IMG/VR virus record: IMGVR_UViG_3300042361_000388
Coordinates: 1-25,530 of that record
Source: a virus
Taxonomy: Duplodnaviria > Caudoviricetes
DNA: 25,530 bases
Direction: 5' to 3' (one strand)
Within the stretch, counting starts at the first letter, position 1, and each line of letters opens with the position of its first letter. A program made the translations under genes and the position numbers. Positions 3,189 to 20,933 of this stretch are shown piece after piece. The notes beneath the pieces were generated by a model. It was not told where the DNA came from. It ran no database searches and was given only the letters and a program-made list of their open reading frames with translations.

Positions 3189-3264
3189 TGGCAGGGATAG
3201 GGGGATTCGAACCCCCGACTTAGCCCTTATAAAGAGCCCACTCTAACCGCTGAGTTATACCCCC
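3189..3264 (-). tRNA. trnI: tRNA-Ile (anticodon TAT) with encoded CCA
   Basis: GGGGGTATAACTCAGCGGTTAGAGTGGGCTC-TTTATAA-GGGCTAAGTCGGGGGTTCGAATCCCCCTATCCCTGCCA forms a full cloverleaf with GTTCGAATC T-loop. Confidence 0.9.
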
Positions 3265-3272
3265 ATGTAAAG

Positions 3273-3343
3273 AACCCCGACTAGGATTCGAACCTAGACA
3301 AAGAGAACCAAAATCTCTAGTGCTACCGTTACACCATCAGGGT
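3273..3343 (-). tRNA. trnQ: tRNA-Gln (TTG)
   Basis: ACCCTGA-TGGTGTAACGGTAGCAC, anticodon arm AGAGA-TTTTGGT-TCTCT, T arm CTAGG-TTCGAAT-CCTAG. No encoded CCA. Confidence 0.9.
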
Positions 3344-3346
3344 AAA

Positions 3347-3418
3347 TCGACCCGCTAGGAATCGAACCTAGATAACCCGCTTAGAAGGCGGGTGTTCTAT
3401 CCGTTGAACTACGGGTCG
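3347..3418 (-). tRNA. trnR: tRNA-Arg (TCT)
   Basis: CGACCCG-TAGTTCAACGGATAGAAC, anticodon arm CCCGC-CTTCTAA-GCGGG, T arm CTAGG-TTCGATT-CCTAG. Confidence 0.92.
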
Positions 3419-3425
3419 GAAAGAG

Positions 3426-3497
3426 AGCCCCGTGTAGGGATTGAACCTACGACCTACTGTTTACAAAACAGTCGCACTACCGCTGTGCTAACGGGGC
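3426..3497 (-). tRNA. trnT: tRNA-Thr (TGT)
   Basis: GCCCCGT-TAGCACAGCGGTAGTGC, anticodon arm ACTGT-TTTGTAA-ACAGT, T arm GTAGG-TTCAATC-CCTAC. Confidence 0.92.
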
Positions 3498-3689
3498 ATA
3501 TTCAAAGAACACCCCCTATCCTATACTCTATTTGACGAAGTCAATATGAATCATCGGCAATCGGCTCTTTGTTAGAATATCTCATTTTGCTGCTTGACAA
3601 CATACAGGCCGTCCCCCCTAATAACCCCCCTGCCTCGCTCCGCTCGGCCTCCTCACATCCCACCTCCTTTTTGGGATAAAAAGTTTCCC

Positions 3690-4100
3690 TGTCTGGACCC
3701 GTACTTCCTCAGGGGGACGGACAAAATCCCGACCCCCTCCCCCCCCCTAGGGCTGGGGGTGCGGAATGGGGGGTGCAGGGCTGGGGCTGGGGACGGGGCT
3801 GGCTGGGGGCTGGGGCAGGGCGTCGGGCCGACGTCGTCGGCAGGGCCTCAGGCTGGGGCAAGGCGGGGCTTTTAGGCGGTGAAGGTGGTAGGGGTCGGGA
3901 CGGGTTCCTGAGGGGTTCCTGACGGGCTCCTGAGAGCGTCCTGAGGGCGTCGGGCCTGAGGGGGCTGGGAGGGCTGGGAAGGGGTAGGGCTCCACGGTTG
4001 ACGGGCGGGAAGCGGGTGAGGGCCAGGTGCTAGGCGGGAGGCAGTCAGGTGGAACTATCCGGGCGTCTCAGGCCGTCGGGCAGGGTAAGGACTGGGCCAA
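3690..4100. other. Non-coding G-skewed region, candidate genome terminus/packaging region
   Basis: A C-run (GACCCCCTCCCCCCCC, 3731-3748) is followed by many GGG/GGGG tracts on the + strand. Only low-complexity Pro/Gly ORFs are present. Lies between the packaging genes and the early cassettes. Confidence 0.55.
3906..3960 (+). repeat. TCCTGA direct repeats with 11-bp period
   Basis: TCCTGA at 3906, 3917, 3928 and 3939, plus CCTGAG at 3955. Confidence 0.75.
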
Positions 4101-4103
4101 ACG

Positions 4104-4127
4104 AAAAGGGCCCCCTTGCGGGGGCCC
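4104..4127 (-). terminator. Intrinsic terminator of cassette A
   Basis: GGGCCCCC-GCAA-GGGGGCCC-TTTT on the minus strand, just after the stop at 4134. Confidence 0.88.
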
Positions 4128-4133
4128 TGAGGC

Positions 4134-4610
4134 TTAGGAAGCACCGTCGCCGTTGAACTGTCCCTTCCTCCTGTCGGGCTCCAGTCCACGGGCTCGAAGT
4201 TCGGCGAGATAGGAGTCGGCGAGACGTCGGTTGCGGTCACCTTTGTTATGCCCACCAGCCTGCATCGCTGTGACGTTTGCGTTCGCATACCACGTTTGCA
4301 GTTCGTCGTCGCTGGTCTTCGCATTGCGTCCGATTTCGTACATCGCCTGAGCGACGTCGTCTTCGATTGCGTCGAGTGCCCTGTAAGCCTTCCGCAGTTC
4401 GTCCCGCTGGGAGCGAAGGAACGGGAGGCGACGGTCAGCAACGGGCATCGCTTCGATTTCGTCGTGCAGGGCGATAACTTCGTCGCCGACGTGCGTCTTC
4501 CGAAGCCTGACGGCTTCGAGCGTCTTTTTGAGGTTGCCGAGAATCTCTTCGGCGGAGTTCGAGCGGGGGAGACGCTCAGGAGAATTGTCCCCGTGGTTGA
4601 TAGGTTCCAC
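4134..4610 (-). CDS. Cassette A cargo, hypothetical helical protein (158 aa, starts MEPINHGD)
   Basis: GTG start, open 158 codons, flanked by promoter and terminator. Confidence 0.85.
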   Translation of the reverse strand: MEPINHGDNSPERLPRSNSAEEILGNLKKTLEAVRLRKTHVGDEVIALHDEIEAMPVADRRLPFLRSQRDELRKAYRALDAIEDDVAQAMYEIGRNAKTSDDELQTWYANANVTAMQAGGHNKGDRNRRLADSYLAELRARGLEPDRRKGQFNGDGAS

Positions 4611-4616
4611 GGCTCG

Positions 4617-4645
4617 AATGTGAGACGTCGGGCGTCCTGATGCAA
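4617..4645 (-). promoter_or_regulatory. Sigma70-like promoter of cassette A
   Basis: TTGCAT-17-CACATT-6-GTG. Confidence 0.7.
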
Positions 4646-4648
4646 CGC

Positions 4649-4677
4649 AAAAGAAAAGGGCCCCATCGCTGGGGCCC
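4649..4677 (-). terminator. Intrinsic terminator of cassette B
   Basis: GGGCCCCA-GCGA-TGGGGCCC-TTTTCTTTT. Confidence 0.88.
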
Positions 4678-4682
4678 TGAGT

Positions 4683-5129
4683 TCATTCGTAATGTGGTAC
4701 GGTATGACTGGATTCTGAGAACGGGACGTCGTCGTCGAGTACGATGTGCGTCGCACGTCGTCGGGAGGCGGACCAGAAAGCGGGAGTTTTGATACCGTCG
4801 ATTTCGTCGCCTTCGAAGATTGCCCCGTGTTCATTCCTGAAGCGTTCGAGCATCGCCTTGCGGTCCTCCTGACTGAACGGTTCCCTGACGCAAGCGATGG
4901 GGGTGAGCCAGTCATACCACCATCCTCCTTCCTCAGGTCCGCCGAAGCACCGTTCGATTTCATACAGCGAAGACCAGCGGGGAGGCGACGGGCCCCAGTT
5001 GCGATTCTTGTGCAGGAACGTCGAGAGGTTGCACAAGCCTCGGTTGATGTTGATGCCGACAGCGTCGTCGGCGGACTGATTCGAGAGGGGGTTCGAATCG
5101 GGATTGCCCTCAGGTGTGTTAGGTTCCAC
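4683..5129 (-). CDS. Cassette B cargo, hypothetical protein with GGPEEGGWWY motif (148 aa)
   Basis: GTG start MEPNTPEG. The motif YEIERCFGGPEEGGWWYD is recalled from uncharacterised phage early proteins. Confidence 0.85.
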   Translation of the reverse strand: MEPNTPEGNPDSNPLSNQSADDAVGININRGLCNLSTFLHKNRNWGPSPPRWSSLYEIERCFGGPEEGGWWYDWLTPIACVREPFSQEDRKAMLERFRNEHGAIFEGDEIDGIKTPAFWSASRRRATHIVLDDDVPFSESSHTVPHYE

Positions 5130-5135
5130 GTCCTG

Positions 5136-5164
5136 ACAAAAGCCTTACACGATGCCCGACGCAA
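5136..5164 (-). promoter_or_regulatory. Promoter of cassette B
   Basis: TTGCGT-17-TTTTGT-6-GTG. The -10 is weak but spacing matches the other units. Confidence 0.55.
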
Positions 5165-5165
5165 C

Positions 5166-5194
5166 AAACAAAAAGGGCCCCATCGCTGGGGCCC
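5166..5194 (-). terminator. Intrinsic terminator of cassette C
   Basis: GGGCCCCA-GCGA-TGGGGCCC-TTTTTGTTT. Confidence 0.88.
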
Positions 5195-5201
5195 CGTTGC
5201 T

Positions 5202-5621
5202 TTATTCGTCGCTGTCTTCGTCGTCGTCGTCGCTGTCCTCTTCGTCGTCTTCGACGTAGTCGGCGACGCTCAGGCCGATGCAGAAGGAGAGGAGTTCGTC
5301 GTATCCTTCCATTTCCTTCCTGAGGTTCTCGCTGAGCGTTCGAGCGTTCGGCACGCTCTCAGGAAGTTCTCCCGCCATTGCGAACTGGCTGAGGATTCGG
5401 AGGCGGTCCGCAACGTTGCGGTCCGTATGCTTCCACGCCCTGCTGAGCGTTCCGAGGACGGCGAAGATGTTGCCGTCGGTGTTCCAGTTGACGCTGGGGA
5501 ACTTGCCCTTGTACTCGCCGAGGATGTAACGGCGGAGCGTTTCGGTTGCCGACAAGACCGTCGGCTGGTTGAGAGCGGGGGAGACGCTCTTCTGGATTTC
5601 CCCGTGGTTGTTAGGTTCCAC
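5202..5621 (-). CDS. Cassette C cargo, hypothetical protein with acidic tail (139 aa)
   Basis: GTG start MEPNNHGE, DGNIFAVLG..YDELL motif, C-terminus EDDEEDSDDDDEDSDE. Confidence 0.85.
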   Translation of the reverse strand: MEPNNHGEIQKSVSPALNQPTVLSATETLRRYILGEYKGKFPSVNWNTDGNIFAVLGTLSRAWKHTDRNVADRLRILSQFAMAGELPESVPNARTLSENLRKEMEGYDELLSFCIGLSVADYVEDDEEDSDDDDEDSDE

Positions 5622-5627
5622 GGGAGA

Positions 5628-5657
5628 ACACTAGGCGACAAAAGGCCGGGCGTGCAA
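5628..5657 (-). promoter_or_regulatory. Promoter of cassette C
   Basis: TTGCAC-18-TAGTGT-6-GTG. Confidence 0.7.
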
Positions 5658-5675
5658 GCGACAAAAACGGGAAAC

Positions 5676-5699
5676 AAAAAAGGCCCCCTTGCGGGGGCC
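5676..5699 (-). terminator. Intrinsic terminator of cassette D
   Basis: GGCCCCC-GCAA-GGGGGCC-TTTTTT. Confidence 0.88.
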
Positions 5700-5704
5700 A
5701 GTTG

Positions 5705-6112
5705 TTAGTTCAGCCTGACGTCGTCGGGCGTCCCTTTCTTCTTCTTCCGTTGCACGACTCGGAACTGGAGCGTTGCGAGTTCCCGCTCGAACTTGTCGGA
5801 CAAGAACCGCTCGATTCGGTCGGCAATGTTCTTCGTATCGGCGGGGCTGATGTCAGTCGGGTCGGCGAACTCTTCGAACGTGTCTTCGAGAATCAGAAAC
5901 AAGTGCGTGCCGTCGGGCTCGATTCGAACGCCGTCCTCATCCTCAACGTACCAGCCGATGTTCCGAATCTGGAGTAGAATCGTGTCTCGCTGGTGGAGTT
6001 CGTTTTTAGGGAACTCGCACAAGCCGACGAAGTTAGTGCCGAAGATATCGTCGGCGGATTGGGAGCGGGGGAGACGCTCACCGTTGTTTTCCCCGTGGTT
6101 GATAGGTTCCAC
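5705..6112 (-). CDS. Cassette D cargo, hypothetical protein (135 aa, starts MEPINHGE)
   Basis: Start reassigned from 6127 to the conserved GTG at 6112, which is in frame. Confidence 0.85.
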   Translation of the reverse strand: MEPINHGENNGERLPRSQSADDIFGTNFVGLCEFPKNELHQRDTILLQIRNIGWYVEDEDGVRIEPDGTHLFLILEDTFEEFADPTDISPADTKNIADRIERFLSDKFERELATLQFRVVQRKKKKGTPDDVRLN

Positions 6113-6118
6113 GCTCAC

Positions 6119-6147
6119 AATCTGCACGGCCTACAGGACAAACACAA
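6119..6147 (-). promoter_or_regulatory. Promoter of cassette D
   Basis: TTGTGT-17-CAGATT-6-GTG. Confidence 0.65.
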
Positions 6148-6152
6148 GAAAC

Positions 6153-6177
6153 AAAAAGGGGCCCCTTGCGGGGCCCC
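6153..6177 (-). terminator. Intrinsic terminator of cassette E
   Basis: GGGGCCCC-GCAA-GGGGCCCC-TTTTT. Confidence 0.88.
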
Positions 6178-6183
6178 GTCGTG

Positions 6184-6723
6184 TCATCCGTAGATGACGT
6201 CTCCGCACGTCGCAACCTGAAGGAAGCAGTCATAATCCACACCGTCGAAGTCGAACGTACTCAGGATTTCGTCGGCATCGTCGTGCAGTCCACGGGCGTG
6301 CAGTTCGACGACGCATAAGAGTTTGACGAATCGGGCACGGGCGTGGGCCGTCATTTCTCGCTTCCCGTAAGCGTATCGCTTCCAAACGGCGACGGCTGAC
6401 TTGGCGGTGATTCGCTTGTACGGTGAATCTGCGTCGTCGTCTTCGTCGTTTGCATTCATCCGCACCGTCAGGCTCCAGTCTTCCCGTGCGGGTTTCCCGC
6501 TGGGAGTGTCGAGCCCGCCTTCGGCAAAAGCGGCGTCGAGAAAGCCGTCGTGACTTCGCTTGTGCTTTAACTGAAACCAATTCGGGTTGAGTCCAGTTTC
6601 TAGGGCCCCGTTCAAAATCCCAGCGACGAAGAGGGAGGTTTTGAAACTCGCCGACAAGACCGTCGGCTGGTTGACGCTGGGGGAGACAGCGTCGTTTTTT
6701 TCCCCGTGGTTGATAGGTTCCAC
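6184..6723 (-). CDS. Cassette E cargo, hypothetical protein (179 aa, starts MEPINHGE)
   Basis: Start reassigned to the conserved GTG at 6723. C-terminal DGVDYDCFLQVATCGDVIYG resembles a DxxxQxAxxGevvYG end motif of uncharacterised phage proteins. Confidence 0.85.
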   Translation of the reverse strand: MEPINHGEKNDAVSPSVNQPTVLSASFKTSLFVAGILNGALETGLNPNWFQLKHKRSHDGFLDAAFAEGGLDTPSGKPAREDWSLTVRMNANDEDDDADSPYKRITAKSAVAVWKRYAYGKREMTAHARARFVKLLCVVELHARGLHDDADEILSTFDFDGVDYDCFLQVATCGDVIYG

Positions 6724-6729
6724 GCTCAC

Positions 6730-6758
6730 AATGTGGAACACGACGACGTCGAACGCAA
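6730..6758 (-). promoter_or_regulatory. Promoter of cassette E
   Basis: TTGCGT-17-CACATT-6-GTG. Confidence 0.7.
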
Positions 6759-6763
6759 TAAAC

Positions 6764-6788
6764 AAAAAGAGCCCCCTTGCGGGGGCCC
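6764..6788 (-). terminator. Intrinsic terminator of cassette F
   Basis: GGGCCCCC-GCAA-GGGGGCTC-TTTTT. Confidence 0.88.
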
Positions 6789-6810
6789 GTTGTGGAACCT
6801 TTCGGTTGGA

Positions 6811-7131
6811 TTATTTCGGCGTCTTAAGTCGGAAACCCTTCAGGGCCTTCGTCGCAAGGGTGAACAGAACCTTGCGGTCCGATTCGCTGACGTTGTGCCC
6901 ACTCGCTTGTTCGGCGAACTTTCGGGCCTCCTCTAGATTTTCCATAATCTTGTTATAGGAGTGGAGGATTCCGTTCTTTCTCGCACGGGTGCGAGAGAGG
7001 GCCGTCAGAAACCGCTTTTCGGCGGGGCTGGCAGGATTGGCAGAGAACGGCACGTGTTCCGAAGAACCGCTTCGGGCGGTGACGCTGGGGGAGACAGCGT
7101 CGGAGGATTCCCCGTGGTGGTTAGTGTCCAC
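6811..7131 (-). CDS. Cassette F cargo, hypothetical basic protein (106 aa, starts MDTNHHGE)
   Basis: Start reassigned to GTG at 7131. The longer ORF-track call would run through a terminator and a promoter. Confidence 0.8.
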   Translation of the reverse strand: MDTNHHGESSDAVSPSVTARSGSSEHVPFSANPASPAEKRFLTALSRTRARKNGILHSYNKIMENLEEARKFAEQASGHNVSESDRKVLFTLATKALKGFRLKTPK

Positions 7132-7137
7132 GGGTTG

Positions 7138-7166
7138 AACGTGTAACACATTAGGGAGGCCGTCAA
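7138..7166 (-). promoter_or_regulatory. Promoter of cassette F
   Basis: TTGACG-17-CACGTT-6-GTG. Confidence 0.75.
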
Positions 7167-7176
7167 CACGTAAGGC

Positions 7177-7207
7177 AAAAAAAGAAGGGAGCCTTTCGGC
7201 CCCCTTC
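7177..7207 (-). terminator. Intrinsic terminator after the 407-aa gene
   Basis: GAAGGGGGCC-GAAA-GGCTCCCTTC-TTTTTTT. Confidence 0.88.
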
Positions 7208-7214
7208 GCTTTGC

Positions 7215-8438
7215 TTACCAGCCCCGCTCTTCCGCCAGTCTCAACAGGTCCCTTTGGTTGATACGGTGACAACCTATCAGGACGAACCCGTCGGCAACCT
7301 CTCGCATTTGGAACGGCCCGACGGCGACGGGAGGCTCGAACTTGTGGGCGTCCTTCCTGAGTTCTTCGGCGTGTCGGCGAAACACCCTTGAGGCAATCCC
7401 TTCGGGAACTCTCGCACCCCGTGACGTCGCAACCTCTTCGGCCTCTACCCTCAAAACCTCTCCCGTGTCGGCGAGAGCATCGGCCCCTTTAACCTCTTCG
7501 ACGATAAACCTGACGAATGATGTGAAGGAGTCGAACGCCGTGTGCTTCTTTCGGTCCTGAAGTTCTTCCCAGAAACTGCGGAACATCAGCCCCGCCTTCT
7601 TCGAGCCGTCAGAGAACACGGAGAACGGTGACGTCAGGTGCATCGGCATAACTCCCTGCCTCCACGCTTCCCGTCGGAACCTGAGTTCCTCTAGGCAAAC
7701 GTCCACGGCGTCCCGATATGATTCGCCGAACTGGTTGAGTTTACTGCGGACCGCTTGCACGCTATCATCTAATCGCTTCTGCCTAAGTTCTCCCTTACGT
7801 GCGTTGTAATCTTCGACACGTGCGACATATTCCTGAGCGGTCTTTCTGAACTTCTTCCCGACGTTGCGAAGTGCCTTGCTCACTCGCTTCTCTTCGCCGT
7901 CTCGCTGGTTGAGAACTTTCTGAAACCATTGTGCGGTTTTCAGGAGTTTATAGTTCCGCCAGATATCAATAACGCTTGCGGACCTGATTCGCTTGTTCCC
8001 GATGTGTTCGAGAAACTTCCCGATTTGCTTCGCAACGTCTTCGACGACGGAGTGGGAGAAGGAGAAGAAGGGGCCGTCAATCGGGAACGTTACGGCATAC
8101 CCTTGTTTAATCCTGTACTGGATGAACTCATCCACGGTCTTCCAGTCGAGTGTCGCTTCCGTCGGGCAAGGGATTTCAAGGGGAATCGAGCGGTAGAGGG
8201 CCCCCTTGTGCCGAGTCGAACTTACGGAGTAGGTTCGGGAGTTAATCAGGAAGACGGCGTTCCTGTTGACGTCGTCGAAAACCTTACGCTTTGCCAGCGT
8301 CGTCGAGTACGTGACAAGGCGGGTTTCGTCGCCGTCGGGAATGGAACTCACATTCCCGCTTACCATTTCTTTCTGCACCCCGTTCGCATAATTGTGAATC
8401 AGGGAAGTAATATTCTTTTGATGTTTTTTGATTTTCAT
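7215..8438 (-). CDS. Hypothetical protein, 407 aa
   Basis: Long ORF with ATG preceded by an AC-rich leader (GCACAACCAC), with its own promoter and terminator. Confidence 0.85.
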   Translation of the reverse strand: MKIKKHQKNITSLIHNYANGVQKEMVSGNVSSIPDGDETRLVTYSTTLAKRKVFDDVNRNAVFLINSRTYSVSSTRHKGALYRSIPLEIPCPTEATLDWKTVDEFIQYRIKQGYAVTFPIDGPFFSFSHSVVEDVAKQIGKFLEHIGNKRIRSASVIDIWRNYKLLKTAQWFQKVLNQRDGEEKRVSKALRNVGKKFRKTAQEYVARVEDYNARKGELRQKRLDDSVQAVRSKLNQFGESYRDAVDVCLEELRFRREAWRQGVMPMHLTSPFSVFSDGSKKAGLMFRSFWEELQDRKKHTAFDSFTSFVRFIVEEVKGADALADTGEVLRVEAEEVATSRGARVPEGIASRVFRRHAEELRKDAHKFEPPVAVGPFQMREVADGFVLIGCHRINQRDLLRLAEERGW

Positions 8439-9129: not shown

Positions 9130-9369
9130 TTAGGAGTTGGAAATCTGGTGGAGACTGTCGGCGAGTTTGCCGACTGCCTGATGTGCCTGTTCGAGACGGG
9201 CCGCTAGGGACAAGACTTCGGCGTGCAGGATATCGGCACGGCGGAACTGGTCCGACGGGCGGCATTTGTCCCAATTAAGGGCCATGATGCCGTCGGGCGT
9301 GCAATGCTTCATTACGGCATCGTGGGCCTTCTGTTTACGTTCTTCGGTATAGGTTTCGGGGATACGCAT
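9130..9369 (-). CDS. Hypothetical protein, 79 aa (MRIPETY...)
   Basis: ATG 9369 with CCACAACC leader, TTGACA at 9415-9410. Confidence 0.7.
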   Translation of the reverse strand: MRIPETYTEERKQKAHDAVMKHCTPDGIMALNWDKCRPSDQFRRADILHAEVLSLAARLEQAHQAVGKLADSLHQISNS

Positions 9370-9411
9370 GGTTGTGGAGGGAATTGGGTTGTAATACGGT
9401 GTGGGCACGTG

Positions 9412-9621
9412 TCAAGCGTTGTTTACGGGCGTCTCGCCGTCCATCTGGAGTCCGCCGACGTCGGGCATCGGGATGTAGATGAACTCAGGCAGGGGCGGGA
9501 GCGTGCCGTTCGCTTTCTGCTTCACGTACTCTTCCCGTTCCTTACGGCGGGCGAGACGCTGGGCGGACGCTTCGGCCTGTTTCTTGTTCGCTTCGATACG
9601 GTCTTGTTTGGATTTTCTCAT
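9412..9621 (-). CDS. Hypothetical basic protein, 69 aa (MRKSKQDR...)
   Basis: ATG 9621 with AACAACCAC leader, TTGACG at 9674-9669. Confidence 0.7.
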   Translation of the reverse strand: MRKSKQDRIEANKKQAEASAQRLARRKEREEYVKQKANGTLPPLPEFIYIPMPDVGGLQMDGETPVNNA

Positions 9622-9670
9622 GTGGTTGTTAGGGGGAGGAGAGATAGGAGAATGCTGGGGGAGGACAACG

Positions 9671-9898
9671 TCAACCCTTTTTTGCATGGAACTTGAAGCC
9701 GATGTTCGAAGGCGAGTTCGAGTCCAGCCATAGGCATAGGTCCGCATAATGGGCCCTGTAGGTCGAGGCAATCTGCCATGCGGGGGAACCGCCTTCTCTC
9801 TTGTGCATCTGGTCCTGCCAGTACTGCATACGCTGGTAGGCCCTGCTATAGAGGGCATAGAAGTATTTGTTTTCGGGCGTCAGTTGGTTGTTGGACAT
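9671..9898 (-). CDS. Hypothetical protein, 75 aa (MSNNQLT...)
   Basis: ATG 9898 downstream of TTGACG at 9936-9931. Confidence 0.65.
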   Translation of the reverse strand: MSNNQLTPENKYFYALYSRAYQRMQYWQDQMHKREGGSPAWQIASTYRAHYADLCLWLDSNSPSNIGFKFHAKKG

Positions 9899-9932
9899 AG
9901 GACCGTCAGGCGTATCACGGCCCACCCTGACG

Positions 9933-11280: not shown

Positions 11281-12081
11281 ATGAAGCACATCAATCCTGA
11301 CAATACTACTGGCAAGGCTTTCGCTGGCATGCCAGACCCTGAATACCGTTCCGCCGAAGGTCTGAGCAACTCGATGCTCAAGGAGTTCCGACGGACGCCA
11401 GCCCACTACAAGGCCAGCCTCAGCCAGCCTCACAAGGACACCAAGGCCCTGAACTTCGGGACCGCCCTGCACAGCATGGTCCTGACGCCTGAACTCGACG
11501 GCGTGGTCGTCTCGCCTGAGTACGACGCTCGCACTACCGCTGGCAAGGCCATCCGTGACGAGTTCAAGGCCAAGTCCGTAGGCAAGACCGTCGTGACCGC
11601 CGAAGAGCACGCCCAGTTGGTCGGCATGCTGGACTCCATCATGATGCACCCGAAGGCCCGTTCCATCATCGAGGGCTGTGCGTACAAGGAACTCAGCCTG
11701 TTCACGAAACTGAAGAACGTCGCATGCAAAGGTCGCATGGACTTGGTGGACGTCGGCAACGGAATCATCGGGGACCTGAAGTCGTGCGAAGACGCCAGCG
11801 TCGAAGGCGTCAGGAAGTCGATTCGCAACTATGGTTATGACTTCCAGAACGTGCATTATGAGAAGTTGTTCGAAGAGTGCTTCCAGCGTAAACTTCAGGC
11901 GTTCGAGTTCATCTTCGTGGAGAAGGAACCGCCGTTCGCAGTAGCCGTTTATCGCATCGGAGATATCACGCTCGACAGGGCTCGCAACGAGTGGGACGCC
12001 CTGATGAACAAGTTCGACGTGTGCTCGACTGGCGACGTCTGGCCCTGCTACAGCACGAACACCGTCACCGTCGAAGTCTAA
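11281..12081 (+). CDS. RecE/Exonuclease VIII-like PD-(D/E)XK nuclease (DUF3799-type)
   Basis: YxxxxGLSNSMLK, FGTALHSMVL, CKGRMD, DLKS, YGYDFQ..HY, FIFVEKEPP motifs. Confidence 0.88.
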   Translation: MKHINPDNTTGKAFAGMPDPEYRSAEGLSNSMLKEFRRTPAHYKASLSQPHKDTKALNFGTALHSMVLTPELDGVVVSPEYDARTTAGKAIRDEFKAKSVGKTVVTAEEHAQLVGMLDSIMMHPKARSIIEGCAYKELSLFTKLKNVACKGRMDLVDVGNGIIGDLKSCEDASVEGVRKSIRNYGYDFQNVHYEKLFEECFQRKLQAFEFIFVEKEPPFAVAVYRIGDITLDRARNEWDALMNKFDVCSTGDVWPCYSTNTVTVEV

Positions 12082-13761: not shown

Positions 13762-14535
13762 ATGTATCCTCTCAACATCCATTCCTACACCGCCATGACC
13801 CCCGAAAATACCGAAGCCCAAACCAAACTGTACAAGGCCCTCGTCAACTTCATCGCCGAGACGACTGACATTCAGGCCGACGACTACAACCCGCACTTCC
13901 GCTCGAAGTTCGCCAGCCTCTCCATGCACCTCAAGGTGCTGAAGCCCATCGCCAAGAAGCACGGCCTCGCCATCGTCCAGATGCCCATCGGCGACGAGTA
14001 CGGCGTCGGGGTACGCACGACCATCGTGCATACCGACGGCGGCGTCATGTCCGCCGACGCCATCGTCCCCTCCGAGCGTGGCATGCAGGGCCAGCACGCT
14101 GGGGCCATCTACTCCTACCTCCGTCGCTATGCCCTCGCCTCCGTGTGCGGTTGTGCCACCGACGACGACGATGCCGAAACTGACCGTCAGATTAAGACGA
14201 CGTCCAAGCCCTCTGCCAGCCCCGCCACGGCTCAGCCCGTGAAGAAGGCGGTCAGCACCCAGTCCGCTCCTGCCAGCGGCTCCAACGCCTCGTTCGTGGT
14301 TCCTTTCGGCGACGCCAAGGGCGTGGCCCTGTCGGAACTTCCCCTGCGTTCGACGGACAAGTCCAAGAAGTGTGCCGACCTGAACTACTGGGCCAACGTC
14401 TGGGAGCCCCGTCCGTTCGGCGACAGCGGTAAGATTTCCGCCAAGGACCTTGCGACCAAGGCTGAAGCCCAGCGTCTCTGGTCCTCCGCCAACGGCCCTC
14501 AGGAAGACGCCCCGTCCGACGAAGTCCCCTTCTAA
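13762..14535 (+). CDS. erf: ERF-family single-strand annealing protein
   Basis: NPHFRSKFASL, KKHGLAIVQ, TTIVHTDG, QHAGAIYSYLRRYALASVCG..DDDDA. SSB-like acidic tail SDEVPF. Start may be 13795. Confidence 0.88.
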   Translation: MYPLNIHSYTAMTPENTEAQTKLYKALVNFIAETTDIQADDYNPHFRSKFASLSMHLKVLKPIAKKHGLAIVQMPIGDEYGVGVRTTIVHTDGGVMSADAIVPSERGMQGQHAGAIYSYLRRYALASVCGCATDDDDAETDRQIKTTSKPSASPATAQPVKKAVSTQSAPASGSNASFVVPFGDAKGVALSELPLRSTDKSKKCADLNYWANVWEPRPFGDSGKISAKDLATKAEAQRLWSSANGPQEDAPSDEVPF

Positions 14536-17677: not shown

Positions 17678-18302
17678 AGTACAGTATGCAGAGCGTCGTG
17701 GTTGCTATGGCTCCGCCGACTATCCACATAAACCAAGTGGAATCGAATATCCAAGACGAGGCCATAGCCAGCATGCCTCCAGCCATAGTTATACCAGCCG
17801 ACTTCTTGAACGGAGTAAAGGCCATTGCAAGGAGGCCAGCCACGAAGATTCCAAGGCCAGCGGTGCTGTACTGCCATAGTATCTTCTGCTTGAACTCAGC
17901 GTCTGCTTTGGCATAAGCCTCTGATATCTCGAAGTCCTTCTGCATGACTAGGTCGTACAGGGCGTTCGTTTCTTCCTCGACCTTCTCCGCCTTCTTCTTG
18001 TCCTTCTCTATGGCCTTGGTGTCGTTCTGACTTATTATACGGGTGAACTCCTGCACCTTCTTGACGTCAGGCTTTGCGACACCAGACAAACGGGTCACTT
18101 GGGCTTCGACAACTTCTCTGACAGTTCCTTTATCGAGGACAGGAACGACAGCAGTAAGGGCAGAAGCAGAGTCAGATACGACTGCTTCGACCTTCTCGAT
18201 GTACTTGTCTTTCTCTTTGTTCTCAATTTTAGGCGGGGTTATTGGTTCTGGTTGCTTGGTGGCACAACCCGTAAGAAGGATTGCTACAATAATGAATCTC
18301 AT
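17634..18302 (-). CDS. Lipoprotein with coiled coil and C-terminal TM helices (spanin-like)
   Basis: Signal peptide II MRFIIVAILLTG-C (start 18302), helical middle, 2-3 hydrophobic segments at the C-terminus. Confidence 0.7.
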   Translation of the reverse strand: MRFIIVAILLTGCATKQPEPITPPKIENKEKDKYIEKVEAVVSDSASALTAVVPVLDKGTVREVVEAQVTRLSGVAKPDVKKVQEFTRIISQNDTKAIEKDKKKAEKVEEETNALYDLVMQKDFEISEAYAKADAEFKQKILWQYSTAGLGIFVAGLLAMAFTPFKKSAGITMAGGMLAMASSWIFDSTWFMWIVGGAIATTTLCILYSILRPRPKEPSQEI

Positions 18303-19468
18303 TTTATGTGTTCTTTTATGTCGTCGTTGATGGACGGGACCCAACTGTTCGCACGTTCCATAATTCTTCTTGACGCTTCATCTCCAGCGTCACCCATTCT
18401 GGCAGGACCACGTCCGCCTCGTCCTTCGTTGCTACCGAATCCAGCCATGCCCATTGTAATTGAGTTAGCCACAGAGCCAAGTACACCCGTACCCAACATC
18501 CCTGTTGTTTCCAGTAGGCTGGCGTCTCTTGGACCAGTATAGTTTTCTGGATACTTGGACCTTCTTATCCTGTCCTCATGGGCTGTTATAGACGGTGTCT
18601 CAAACAAGAAAGAAGCAATGCCTCCTATTTTTCCAGCGATTCGACCTGAGCGTCCTAGCGTATCAACCGTTTTTACACCCTGTCCTGTCCTTCCATGCAA
18701 TTGAATAGTTTGAGTATCAGGGTCTATTACTCCAGCAGTACGAGAATATCTTTCTATTGTATCTGAAGTAGGAAAAAGTTCGCTTGCTGTATTCGTAGAT
18801 AAATAGGAAGCGGCTTTGGCCTCGTTACCACCCTGAAGAATTAACCTAGGAAAATTGTACTGCTTCTTCCAAGACTTAATCCATTCCTGTCCGTGGCTAT
18901 GATTGGTAGTAGCACCTCCAAAAGGAGGGTGTTGAGCCAATGGAATCATCGCCGCTTCTTCGCTTCCAGCAACGACAGTAAGTGGAGAGGGAACTGTGAA
19001 CACACCTTGATTCTTTAATCCGCCAGCAAAGTAATATTTTAAATCCCTAGGAGCAGTAGCGGCATTAACATCGGTGTAAAACCTTTTTGAGTACCAAGCC
19101 CGATTTTCTATCTGGTTTATTGCCTGTTGTATTTCGAGTCGTGTCGCCTCTGTGGTTGCGTTTGCAAGCGATACTCTAAGTGTCTTTAATTTTGCCTCTG
19201 CGTTTGCGTTTATTGCAGACTGAGGAAGCCTAGCGTCTCTATCAGGACCCTGAAAGTCAGCCCTTATCCCTAAGTATCTTTCATTGGTTGGGTTAAATCT
19301 TCTATTGAACTCGCTTCCCCGTGTATAAGCAACGGCATCATCTACGTTTGTAAACGTCCTAGTTACGTTTTCGGCAGGGATAAGTTGAGCCTTGCCCGAC
19401 AAGGCATCAAGATAAGGAGCATTGAATAGCCAAGCACCATGATAAAGTGGAAAGTTTTGTTCAGCCAT
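18299..19468 (-). CDS. Hypothetical protein, 389 aa, C-terminal ~100 aa shared with the next gene
   Basis: ATG 19468 lies immediately after the upstream stop (MAEQNFPLYHG...). Confidence 0.82.
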   Translation of the reverse strand: MAEQNFPLYHGAWLFNAPYLDALSGKAQLIPAENVTRTFTNVDDAVAYTRGSEFNRRFNPTNERYLGIRADFQGPDRDARLPQSAINANAEAKLKTLRVSLANATTEATRLEIQQAINQIENRAWYSKRFYTDVNAATAPRDLKYYFAGGLKNQGVFTVPSPLTVVAGSEEAAMIPLAQHPPFGGATTNHSHGQEWIKSWKKQYNFPRLILQGGNEAKAASYLSTNTASELFPTSDTIERYSRTAGVIDPDTQTIQLHGRTGQGVKTVDTLGRSGRIAGKIGGIASFLFETPSITAHEDRIRRSKYPENYTGPRDASLLETTGMLGTGVLGSVANSITMGMAGFGSNEGRGGRGPARMGDAGDEASRRIMERANSWVPSINDDIKEHIK

Positions 19469-19469
19469 G

Positions 19470-20933
19470 TTACTTGGAGTGTTCTTTGATATCGTCGTTG
19501 ATGGATGGGACCCAACTGTTCGCCCTCTCCATAGTCCTTCTGGTAATCTCGTTTCCAGTATCTTCCATGCGTGCAGGGCCACGTCCTCCACGGCTTTCAT
19601 TACTGCCGACGCCAGTCATACCCATTGTAAGTGAGTTAGCAACAGAGCCAACCACGCCCTTGCCTACCATCTGTGCCGTCTCAAGTAGGCTGGCATCTCT
19701 TGGACCAGTATAATCAGCAGGGTACTTAGACCTTCTTATTCTATCCTCACGTGCCGTTATAGACGGTGTCTCAAGCAAGAACGTCGCCGCACCTCCAGCC
19801 TTTGTAGCACCAGCGATAGCGGTCTGAACTTCAGGTTGAACGTAAAGGCTTGTTGCGTTCCACTTGGCGTTTCTAAGATGTTGACCAATAGTTCTTTCTG
19901 TAAAAGGAGTTATGCCGTCGTAAAGTGTCCTCATATTAAGAGGACCAATAGTGGTTGTTACTGCTTTCATTTCCTTTGGGATAATAGTATTTCCAGAATA
20001 CCTTGGTCTATACATGCTGTTACCAACAGGAATGAAATCTCTATCAAGTATTTCTTGTGGAACGTTTCCAACAAGCCTATAAACCTCTGAGCCATTTGCT
20101 ACTGGGGCTGTGCTTGTTTGCATAACTCTAAGCCCCTGCCTGTTCCAAGGATTTACCCTATCTATGAAAGAAGGATTTTCACTTGGATTAAGAGCAAGAT
20201 ATCCGTTGTTAAATGGAGTTGCCTTTAGACTAACGCCTTGAGATGCCTTCTCCCATTCTTTAAGTGCTTCTGGCCTGATTATTTTCCAAGGGTCGCCTTG
20301 TCTTGTTTTGTCGGTCAACAAGTCAGAGCCTTGAGATATAAAGCCTCTACTTGATATAGAGTCATACAAAGGATTAGCACCACTTGCCGCTCTTTCCATA
20401 AATTGCGGCGTAGCCTGAATGTAAATGTTTTTTGTTAATGGAGTTGCCCTAGATGTATACATTCCGAAACTACCCATGTTATCTACTTGGTTTCCAAGTT
20501 TGTCAAAAACAGCAGTAGACCGATATTCTTCAGCAGGAAATCCAGCGTTAAAATAAGCAGAGCCTCCAAATCCAGCCGTGCCACGAACTTGTCCAGTTCT
20601 CAGAAGGTCATTTACAGGATTTGTAAGATATCCCTCTTTCGTAACTGATGCTCCTTCTTGTGATAAAACCCTCCAAGTGTCGTACTCGTCATAAGAAAGG
20701 GTTCCTTTAAGGTTAGGATTATTACGTCTCCACTTTAACCAATTGTTTTCTGAAAAAGGTTTATTATGTACGTTTGGAATTAGCGGGGCTGGTTCAACAT
20801 CCATAAGCCTGTAGAAGTCACTACCTCTGCTAAAGTTGTTTGATGAAACAGGGTGTGTATACAGGTCATAGCCGATGCCATCCTTTATAAATCCATCATT
20901 AAATCTTGTTACTGGAAGAATAGGGTCAGCCAT
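19470..20933 (-). CDS. Hypothetical protein, 487 aa, C-terminal ~100 aa shared with the previous gene
   Basis: Long ORF with near-identical tail ETPSITAxEDRIRRSKYP...SWVPSINDDIKEHxK. Confidence 0.85.
   Translation of the reverse strand: MADPILPVTRFNDGFIKDGIGYDLYTHPVSSNNFSRGSDFYRLMDVEPAPLIPNVHNKPFSENNWLKWRRNNPNLKGTLSYDEYDTWRVLSQEGASVTKEGYLTNPVNDLLRTGQVRGTAGFGGSAYFNAGFPAEEYRSTAVFDKLGNQVDNMGSFGMYTSRATPLTKNIYIQATPQFMERAASGANPLYDSISSRGFISQGSDLLTDKTRQGDPWKIIRPEALKEWEKASQGVSLKATPFNNGYLALNPSENPSFIDRVNPWNRQGLRVMQTSTAPVANGSEVYRLVGNVPQEILDRDFIPVGNSMYRPRYSGNTIIPKEMKAVTTTIGPLNMRTLYDGITPFTERTIGQHLRNAKWNATSLYVQPEVQTAIAGATKAGGAATFLLETPSITAREDRIRRSKYPADYTGPRDASLLETAQMVGKGVVGSVANSLTMGMTGVGSNESRGGRGPARMEDTGNEITRRTMERANSWVPSINDDIKEHSK

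What the first reader, a model, noticed from the sequence alone, without database searches (positions are those of the whole stretch)
4104..7207. Array of six stand-alone gene cassettes with a shared promoter/leader/terminator chassis and unrelated cargo
Six units of about 400-610 bp are stacked head to tail on the minus strand. Each reads -35 (TTGnnn), 17/18 nt, -10, 6 nt, GTG GAA CCT AwC AAC CAC GGG GA, a structured segment, an unrelated 106-179 aa ORF, and a GC-rich GNRA-loop terminator whose U-tract runs into (or, for C, lies ~20 nt from) the next -35. Cargoes show no similarity beyond the first ~25 codons. Leader halves are mosaic: A/D share ERLPRS, B/D QSADD, C/E NQPTVLSA and E/F DAVSPSV. 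This suggests exchange by recombination at the repeated parts. No integrase lies in the window, but the phage encodes RecE-like and ERF proteins that could act on such short homologies. It is conceptually like the PeSL cassettes of T4-type phages or the SPO1 host-takeover module, but here the conserved element lies inside the coding sequence. It may be a plug-in platform for host-takeover or anti-defence genes.
Basis: partly seen in the sequence, partly recalled or inferred. Interest (0 to 1): 0.92.

Follow-up and report, generated by a model that had tools for sequence, protein, structure and literature searches.

The report
Phage gene cassettes with pseudoknot leader
A lake phage carries a row of one-gene units that are gained and lost whole among relatives, and each unit's gene opens with GTG followed by the same predicted RNA pseudoknot, which likely helps ribosomes start on messages predicted to have no leader sequence.

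Summary
The six cassettes are real. Their shared part is an RNA structure, not a peptide tag: GTG at the predicted transcription start, about 18 A/C-rich bases, a 5-bp pseudoknot on a 7-8-nt hairpin loop, then a second hairpin. It covaries (7 pseudoknot haplotypes, all Watson-Crick) and matches no Rfam family. In 8 records, 29 of 29 GTG cassettes have it (26 with 5 bp or more); 0 of 21 promoter-led ATG genes do. The pseudoknot moves from +18 to +22 while GTG stays in frame, so translation most likely starts leaderless at GUG. Cargo E and C also occur with a plain ATG, so the leader was added to them. Two sister phages differ by two exact cassette-length indels with breakpoints in the promoter and the leader's 5' end, as in T4 PeSL cassettes. 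But gene order is fixed, only about 10 cargo families turned up, no integrase was found, and no host-takeover or anti-defence function is shown. Best mechanism (inferred, 0.45): the pseudoknot acts as a backstop that holds 70S ribosomes on a weak GUG. The main rival is a translational operator. No RNA data; host unknown.

The parts
7184..7207 (-). terminator-like hairpin (GAAA loop) closing the upstream 407-aa gene
7132..7166 (-). predicted promoter F (TTGACG-17-CACGTT-6)
7059..7131 (-). RNA leader F: GTG at +1, pseudoknot strand 7113-7109, hairpin 7101-7081; second hairpin ambiguous
6811..7131 (-). ORF F, 106 aa, unknown; homologs in L007, L222, distant in L263/L268 (J)
6769..6788 (-). terminator-like hairpin after F
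6724..6758 (-). predicted promoter E
6650..6723 (-). RNA leader E
6184..6723 (-). ORF E, 179 aa; widespread phage family, 45 of 54 homologs lack the leader; confident model with no PDB match
6158..6177 (-). terminator-like hairpin after E
6113..6147 (-). predicted promoter D
6038..6112 (-). RNA leader D
5705..6112 (-). ORF D, 135 aa, unknown; homologs in L007, L226
5682..5699 (-). terminator-like hairpin after D
5622..5657 (-). predicted promoter C (18-nt spacer)
5548..5621 (-). RNA leader C
5202..5621 (-). ORF C, 139 aa, helical with acidic tail; ATG-started without pseudoknot in L263/L268
5174..5195 (-). terminator-like hairpin after C
5130..5164 (-). predicted promoter B
5055..5129 (-). RNA leader B (compensated pseudoknot GAGGG/CCCTC, 8-nt loop)
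4683..5129 (-). ORF B, 148 aa, weak PHROG 30656/7302 (unknown function)
4657..4678 (-). terminator-like hairpin after B
4611..4645 (-). predicted promoter A
4536..4610 (-). RNA leader A
4134..4610 (-). ORF A, 158 aa; a 73%-identical allele sits in an otherwise near-identical genome (L001) and beside this allele in runs X2 and X6
4107..4128 (-). last terminator-like hairpin of the array
7215..8438 (-). 407-aa gene (phrog_7247, unknown) directly upstream of the array in every record that covers the site; candidate partner only
11281..12081 (+). RecE/exonuclease VIII-like gene, candidate for microhomology recombination
13762..14535 (+). ERF single-strand annealing gene, candidate for microhomology recombination

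Best explanation
The array is a row of single-gene cassettes that are gained and lost whole among relatives, and each GTG-started cassette opens with a covarying, predicted RNA pseudoknot 18-22 bases into a predicted leaderless mRNA, where it likely acts as a backstop that holds the ribosome on the weak GUG start. Shown: the repeated anatomy; compensatory pairing in three helices; GTG staying in frame while the pseudoknot shifts; the GTG-with-pseudoknot versus ATG-without split; two cassette-length indels with breakpoints in 8-10 bp of shared chassis. Inferred: host RNA polymerase starts at the G of GTG and stops at the hairpin terminators; a 70S ribosome loads on the open A/C-rich first 18 nt; the pseudoknot sits at about the mRNA entry channel and stops the ribosome sliding past GUG; the ribosome then unwinds it and makes a 25-30 residue N-terminal extension with no conserved sequence; phage RecE/ERF anneal the short repeats, so cassettes and leaders move and a cargo can gain the leader in place of its own ATG.
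For: Structure: 90 of 90 pseudoknot cells Watson-Crick in 18 leaders; in 9 gap-free leaders 99.4% of cells paired, 13 of 19 pairs changed on both sides, 0 of 500 shuffles as high, slid controls 37-57%; 7 haplotypes, 1 of 5040 permutations fully paired. G-U pairs fall on the sense strand. Start site: pseudoknot strand at +19 in 23, +18 in 4, +22 in 2 of 29 leaders, GTG in frame in all; stops in 0, 5 and 17 of 20 leaders for frames 0, +1, +2; no shared internal ATG/GTG/TTG. Bases +5 to +18 are 88% A/C; CA repeats after the start codon enhance leaderless translation and GUG is the weaker leaderless start in E. coli (PMC9031893). 29 of 29 GTG cassettes have the fold, 0 of 21 promoter-led ATG genes. 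E homologs without it start at ATG, 13 of 14 after an A/C-rich tract. Mobility: 311-bp and 527-bp indels; ERF in 5 of 5 and RecE-like in 4 of 5 records. Analogy: alphavirus DLP (PMC4872096).
Against: No transcript, ribosome or reporter data; the start site is predicted from weak -10 boxes. GTG and the pseudoknot travel together and probably arose once, so 29 of 29 is not 29 independent events. The same review says stable structure around the start codon lowers leaderless translation, and a weak hairpin over GTGG is predicted in the window's leaders. One leader (L263 A) keeps only 3 pseudoknot pairs and two (H type) only 4. Sequence alone cannot separate an enhancer from an operator or a stability element. 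Relatedness inflates the shuffle tests.
Confidence: 0.45

Rival explanations
1. The pseudoknot is a shared translational operator or switch. A phage or host protein (or a ligand) would stabilise it and trap the initiating ribosome, turning all cassettes down together; leaderless mRNAs have no 5' UTR in which to put such a site.
For: Invariant unpaired or closing bases (second loop C, A10, a G-U closing pair in 8 of 9) suggest a recognised 3D surface. Precedent: E. coli rpsO pseudoknot entrapment by S15 (PMC3985624). The 407-aa gene is found in 4 of the 5 leader-bearing records (the fifth ends inside the array) and 0 of 20 others.
Against: The 407-aa protein has no RNA-binding family or PDB hit, evolves fast enough to be missed elsewhere, and its co-occurrence may be shared ancestry. 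An operator does not explain why no pseudoknot cassette starts with ATG.
Confidence: 0.25
2. The pseudoknot and hairpin would protect the mRNA from 5'-end-dependent decay, giving long-lived early messages; the GUG start follows from a promoter class that starts with G.
For: Compact structure near the 5' end and a terminator hairpin at the 3' end of every unit; relatives have promoters followed by GTT/GTC-ATG. Protective 5' structures are recalled knowledge.
Against: 18 open bases precede the structure; an exonuclease stopped there would already have removed the start codon. ATG cassettes in the same arrays lack it.
Confidence: 0.12
3. The 7-nt-loop hairpin would mimic a tRNA anticodon arm paired in cis to its codon and start translation without a start codon, like dicistrovirus IGR IRES PKI; the first 18 nt would be an ordinary A/C-rich 5' UTR.
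For: The pseudoknot strand lies where ATG sits after the A/C tract in ordinary genes of these phages; five pairs on the 3' side of a 7-nt loop is anticodon-arm geometry (recalled).
Against: The reading frame is not fixed to the pseudoknot: offsets +18, +19, +22, and +18 versus +19 for the same cargo A, while GTG stays in frame.
Confidence: 0.06
4. The leader would act on RNA polymerase as a put-like nascent RNA that causes read-through of the cassette terminators or pausing.
For: It lies in the first 75 nt of each predicted transcript and has two closely spaced hairpins; HK022 put RNA is recalled.
Against: Every cassette keeps its own promoter and terminator, which read-through would make redundant; the tie to GTG starts is unexplained.
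Confidence: 0.05
5. The element would be a DNA recombination site or an N-terminal targeting peptide for an integron-like platform.
For: One indel breakpoint lies in the leader's first 8 bp; leaders are exchanged between cargoes.
Against: The other breakpoint is in the promoter of an ATG cassette with no leader. Pairing, not sequence, is conserved, and the same hairpin is read in different frames. PF00589 in 0 of 5 records, which are 75-93% complete. Order is fixed and the cargo pool small.
Confidence: 0.05

Closest known systems
PeSL cassettes of T4-type phages (PMC2839356, PMC4122927)
   Same: Repeated promoter plus stem-loop terminator ahead of genes of unknown function in a variable region; gain, loss and replacement by crossover in the repeats.
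   Different: PeSLs end in a Shine-Dalgarno sequence and start codon; here there is no SD, the start is a predicted leaderless GTG, and a covarying pseudoknot lies in the coding sequence. The genome is a ~40-kb non-T4 phage with O/DnaC-type replication and RecE/ERF. Mini-circles not shown.
Alphavirus downstream loop, DLP (PMC4872096)
   Same: Viral RNA structure inside the coding sequence at a narrow distance from the start codon, preceded by open sequence; the model for the proposed backstop.
   Different: Eukaryotic scanning 40S and eIF2 bypass, a plain stem-loop 27-31 nt from AUG; here bacterial, a pseudoknot at +18 to +22, GUG start, function untested, no homology.
E. coli rpsO (S15) pseudoknot operator (PMC3985624)
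   Same: Pseudoknot reaching into the coding region that a bacterial ribosome meets during initiation.
   Different: rpsO includes 5' UTR, SD and AUG and is autoregulatory for one gene; here it lies wholly downstream of the start and is shared by about 10 unrelated genes.
Dicistrovirus IGR IRES PKI (recalled)
   Same: Anticodon-arm-like hairpin with five loop bases paired in cis.
   Different: Partner strand is 5' rather than 3' of the hairpin, and the frame is not set by the pseudoknot.
SPO1 host-takeover module (recalled; search listing only)
   Same: Cluster of small early genes with host-type promoters and terminators.
   Different: No homology found, no shut-off activity shown, and no such RNA leader recalled there.

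Membership tests
PeSL cassettes | repeated sigma70-like promoter plus stem-loop terminator ahead of unknown-function genes | tested here: met
   (by sequence; promoter activity not measured, -10 weak)
PeSL cassettes | insertion, deletion or replacement of genes with crossover in the repeat | tested here: met
   (311-bp and 527-bp indels)
PeSL cassettes | Shine-Dalgarno and start codon at the element's 3' end | tested here: not met
   GTG follows the -10 box by 6 nt; PeSL anatomy
PeSL cassettes | T4-like genome | tested here: not met
   O-like initiator, DnaC, RecE, ERF; complete relatives mostly 41-49 kb
PeSL cassettes | excised mini-circles in infected cells or virions | tested here: inconclusive
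   contigs of 8 runs show no circle joint, but contigs drop rare variants
Integron cassette array | tyrosine-recombinase integrase | tested here: inconclusive
   PF00589 in 0 of 5 records, 75-93% complete; control rang in 14 of 14
Integron cassette array | mostly promoterless cassettes driven by one array promoter (recalled) | tested here: not met
   19 of 19 leaders have their own promoter-like sequence and each cassette a terminator
Any Rfam 15 family | match at gathering score | tested here: not met
   only tRNAs pass in window 3200-7400 and in L007, L263, L268
Alphavirus DLP | stable structure in the coding sequence at a constrained distance from the start codon | tested here: met
   +18 to +22 in 29 of 29; analogy only
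Alphavirus DLP | promotes initiation by stalling the ribosome on the start codon | not testable with these tools
   needs reporter and toeprint assays
IGR-IRES PKI-type initiation | reading frame fixed by the pseudoknot (recalled) | tested here: not met
   offsets +18, +19, +22 with GTG always in frame
rpsO-type operator | pseudoknot spans 5' UTR, SD and AUG | tested here: not met
   structure lies downstream of the predicted start
rpsO-type operator | a protein binds the pseudoknot and represses | not testable with these tools
   candidate 407-aa protein has no informative hit
Host-takeover or anti-defence module | cargo with known shut-off or anti-defence family or fold | tested here: inconclusive
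   no family above cut-off; fold searches for E and C gave no match above background

The most novel reading that the evidence does not exclude
A phage lineage has evolved a portable RNA translation-start module, GUG plus A/C landing pad plus pseudoknot, that replaces a gene's own ATG region, spreads between unrelated genes by recombination, and drives or gates leaderless 70S initiation: a bacterial counterpart of the alphavirus DLP and a gene-specific cis element for leaderless mRNAs.
Probability: 0.45. Interest if true: 0.88.

Novelty: new variant of a known kind. Interest (0 to 1): 0.72.

Why it matters
How single leaderless mRNAs are recognised and regulated is stated as an open question (PMC9031893 abstract). 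This gives a 75-nt element with natural compensatory variants, natural spacing variants and natural ATG controls on the same cargo genes, so the question can be tested with short reporters. It could also serve as an SD-independent expression part. It also shows PeSL-like cassette turnover in a small non-T4 phage, with exact breakpoints.

Tried and rejected
Rfam: no family for the leader. Cargo: no Pfam, PHROGs, PADLOC or NCBIfam function; ESM Atlas blank for C and B. E model (pLDDT 95): no PDB match by Foldseek; VIA-align best Z 3.5, with two Tad1 chains at Z 3.3-3.4, rmsd 4.5 A, 89 aligned, which is background and not taken as evidence; BFVD gives only uncharacterised phage proteins. C model: nothing above background. 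No RNA holder listed. No circle joint in contigs of 8 runs; the one long joint (X4, 4166-6064) is better read as a sister-phage A cassette than as a deletion. Host not identified: two MAG contigs (Acidimicrobiaceae, Fluviibacter) may be mis-binned; best INPHARED hit 33%, no host. Metagenome pattern scan: 10 loci, 2 new true contigs, 2 already known, 6 chance. Last viral pattern scan: 16 new loci, 2 true. The GTGG/CCAC hairpin as a fixed helix was dropped: its register varies. Tandem-duplicated paralogues rejected: no similarity past the leader. HDV-like ribozyme rejected by topology (recalled) and Rfam. Literature: searches returned 0 papers; one search listed 17, none on such an element by title and abstract start; one search listed 2. 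The library lacks most subscription papers and no supplements were read, so absence from print is not proven. Earlier-findings look-ups returned nothing.


Full report
Setting. The window is a linear virus record of 25.5 kb, 61% complete, with terminase, four tRNAs, O-like initiator, DnaC, RecE-like and ERF genes. Eleven lake-water DNA runs hold half or more of the array's words, one of them possibly its source. The host is unknown. An SD-like 4-mer precedes 3 of 25 starts examined; many are preceded by A/C-rich tracts instead.

Observation. All six units are present as described. Each has TTGnnn, 17 or 18 nt, a hexamer ending in T, 6 nt, then GTGG; this holds for 19 of 19 leaders with upstream sequence, and for 8 of 82 GTGG sites on the window's minus strand, 6 of which are the cassettes. 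That spacing would put the transcription start on the G of GTG. The -10 boxes are weak and the consensus scanner missed them, so the start is a prediction.

The shared element is RNA. After GTG come bases that are 88% A/C (+5 to +18), a 5-nt strand, a 5-10 nt linker, a 5-7 bp hairpin whose 7-8 nt loop pairs by its last five bases with that strand, and a second hairpin. In 18 leaders 90 of 90 pseudoknot cells are Watson-Crick, with 8 haplotypes of the first stem. In the 9 leaders that align without gaps, 99.4% of cells pair, 13 of 19 pairs change on both sides, no shuffle of 500 reaches this, and slid registers give 37-57%. With the sister phages there are 7 pseudoknot haplotypes, and 1 of 5040 permutations pairs them all. 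These sequences are related, so the shuffle figures are not probabilities. G-U pairs lie on the sense strand. The peptide is not conserved beyond its first residue because the same hairpin is read in different frames. Rfam has no such family.

Where translation starts. In 8 records, all 29 GTG cassettes are in frame with their cargo; 27 end just before a terminator and 2 run off the contig. The pseudoknot strand starts at +19 in 23, +18 in 4 and +22 in 2. For cargo A it is at +19 in the window and +18 in L268. A contig in run X4 appears to place it at +21 with GTG still in frame; this is arithmetic on the tables and assumes two pieces are one record. Stops occur in 0, 5 and 17 of 20 leaders for frames 0, +1, +2, and no internal start codon is shared. 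So the frame follows GTG, not the structure. That favours leaderless GUG initiation and argues against an IRES-like start, although the pseudoknot strand does sit where ATG follows the A/C tract in ordinary genes.

The leader was added to the cargo. Of 54 E-family proteins, 9 carry the leader peptide and 45 do not, most of these starting with Met near E residue 25-30. Fourteen such loci have ATG, 13 after an A/C-rich tract, and no model hit. C has the leader in 14 of 15 homologs but starts with ATG and no pseudoknot in L263 and L268, as does an E-like gene there. Overall 29 of 29 GTG cassettes have the fold (26 with 5 or more pairs, 2 with 4, 1 with 3) against 0 of 21 promoter-led ATG genes; one further ATG row (L081 690) lay outside any array and was dropped, and it also lacked the fold. 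GTG and pseudoknot are inherited together, so this is probably one invention, not 29. The model finds the leader in 5 of 41 whole records, only in this array. More distant relatives have cassettes with a 3-nt leader before ATG and A/C-rich first codons, or 15-20 nt A/C leaders.

Mobility. Downstream of the 407-aa gene the order is F,E,D,C,B,A in the window; F,G,E,D,C,B,H in L007 (terminase 88%); and J,E-like,(L),K,C,B,A in L263/L268, where J is distantly like F. L263 and L268 (87-90% identical) differ by two exact units: 311 bp with the breakpoint in a 10-bp promoter repeat, and 527 bp with the breakpoint in the first 8 bp of the leader. The 311-bp cassette's gene is homologous to one lying upstream of the array in the window. 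Leader identity ignores cargo: window E is 94% like L007 C but 61% like L007 E; L222 G equals L226 E. Cassette A has a 73%-identical allele in a near-identical genome and both alleles occur in runs X2 and X6. ERF is in 5 of 5 and RecE-like in 4 of 5 records, a tyrosine integrase in 0 of 5. Annealing of short repeats by ERF/RecE is the likely route, by inference. Against an open platform: order is kept, about 10 cargo families carry the leader, and the leader-peptide profile returned 14 proteins, 12 of families A-G, one repeat protein and one not read.

Cargo. No function could be assigned. E folds confidently and resembles uncharacterised proteins of other phages; neither E nor C matches a solved fold above background. 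Own promoters of host type suggest early expression; host takeover or anti-defence remains a guess.

Mechanism. A ribosome with +1 to +3 in the P site covers about 15-18 nt downstream (recalled), so the pseudoknot begins about where the ribosome ends. CA repeats after the start enhance leaderless translation and GUG is a weak leaderless start in E. coli but works in several actinobacteria (PMC9031893, part 1 of 5 and passages). I read the structure as a backstop that confines 70S to an 18-nt window whose only start codon is GUG (0.45), as the alphavirus DLP does for 40S (PMC4872096, abstract and section 16). The same review says structure near the start usually inhibits, so a shared operator in the manner of rpsO (PMC3985624, introduction) is the main rival (0.25). 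The 407-aa gene co-occurs with the leader (4 of 25 records, all leader-bearing) but has no informative hit. Stability, IRES-like, put-like and DNA-site readings are weaker.

Comparison and verdict. The array works like PeSL cassettes (PMC2839356, part 1 of 6 and passages; PMC4122927, part 1 of 3) but fails membership on SD/ATG anatomy and genome type. The RNA leader has no match in Rfam or in my literature searches (open-access library only, no supplements read). Verdict: a new variant of a known cassette system that carries an undescribed, well-supported RNA structure of untested function. Interest 0.72.

Noticed in passing
L226:1042-1341 (-): A 100-aa LuxR/GerE-type HTH ORF (PF00196, E 6.5e-10) overlaps the stop of cargo G inside that cassette, making it two-gene; absent in L007, and L222 has a longer G instead.
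   Followed up: partly
window 3600-4090 (-); same site in L001, L007, L020, L263, L268: A strand-biased C-rich low-complexity tract between array and tRNAs, ending in a G-run and a short T-run/A-run motif seen in several relatives; L263 and L268 contigs end in it. Possible genome end, packaging site or origin.
   Followed up: no
window 3189-3497 (-); L022 6982-7698; L020 1475-2037: tRNA cluster beside the array varies in content: 4 genes in the window, 8 in L022, 7 in L020.
   Followed up: partly
L081:5200-7500 and L086:5400-7600: Relatives have arrays of individually promoted genes with a 3-nt leader before ATG and, in several, a shared A/C-rich motif about 25-35 nt into the coding sequence; a pseudoknot-free version of the same design.
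   Followed up: partly
window 18299-19600 and 19470-20933 (-): Two adjacent large ORFs share about 300 nt at 79% identity at their 3' ends; no family found.
   Followed up: no
window 9130-9900 (-): Three small genes upstream of the array each have their own TTGAC-type promoter and a short leader before ATG, without terminators; one has a homolog inside the array of L263.
   Followed up: partly
L263:3526-3600 and L268 equivalent: The ATG-started C gene keeps a 5-bp hairpin with a 7-nt loop near the position of the leader hairpin, with at most 2 pseudoknot pairs; possibly a remnant or precursor.
   Followed up: no
L060:5900-7600: Several early genes in this relative are preceded by a repeated A/C-rich intergenic motif of about 20 nt before ATG, another repeated chassis.
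   Followed up: no
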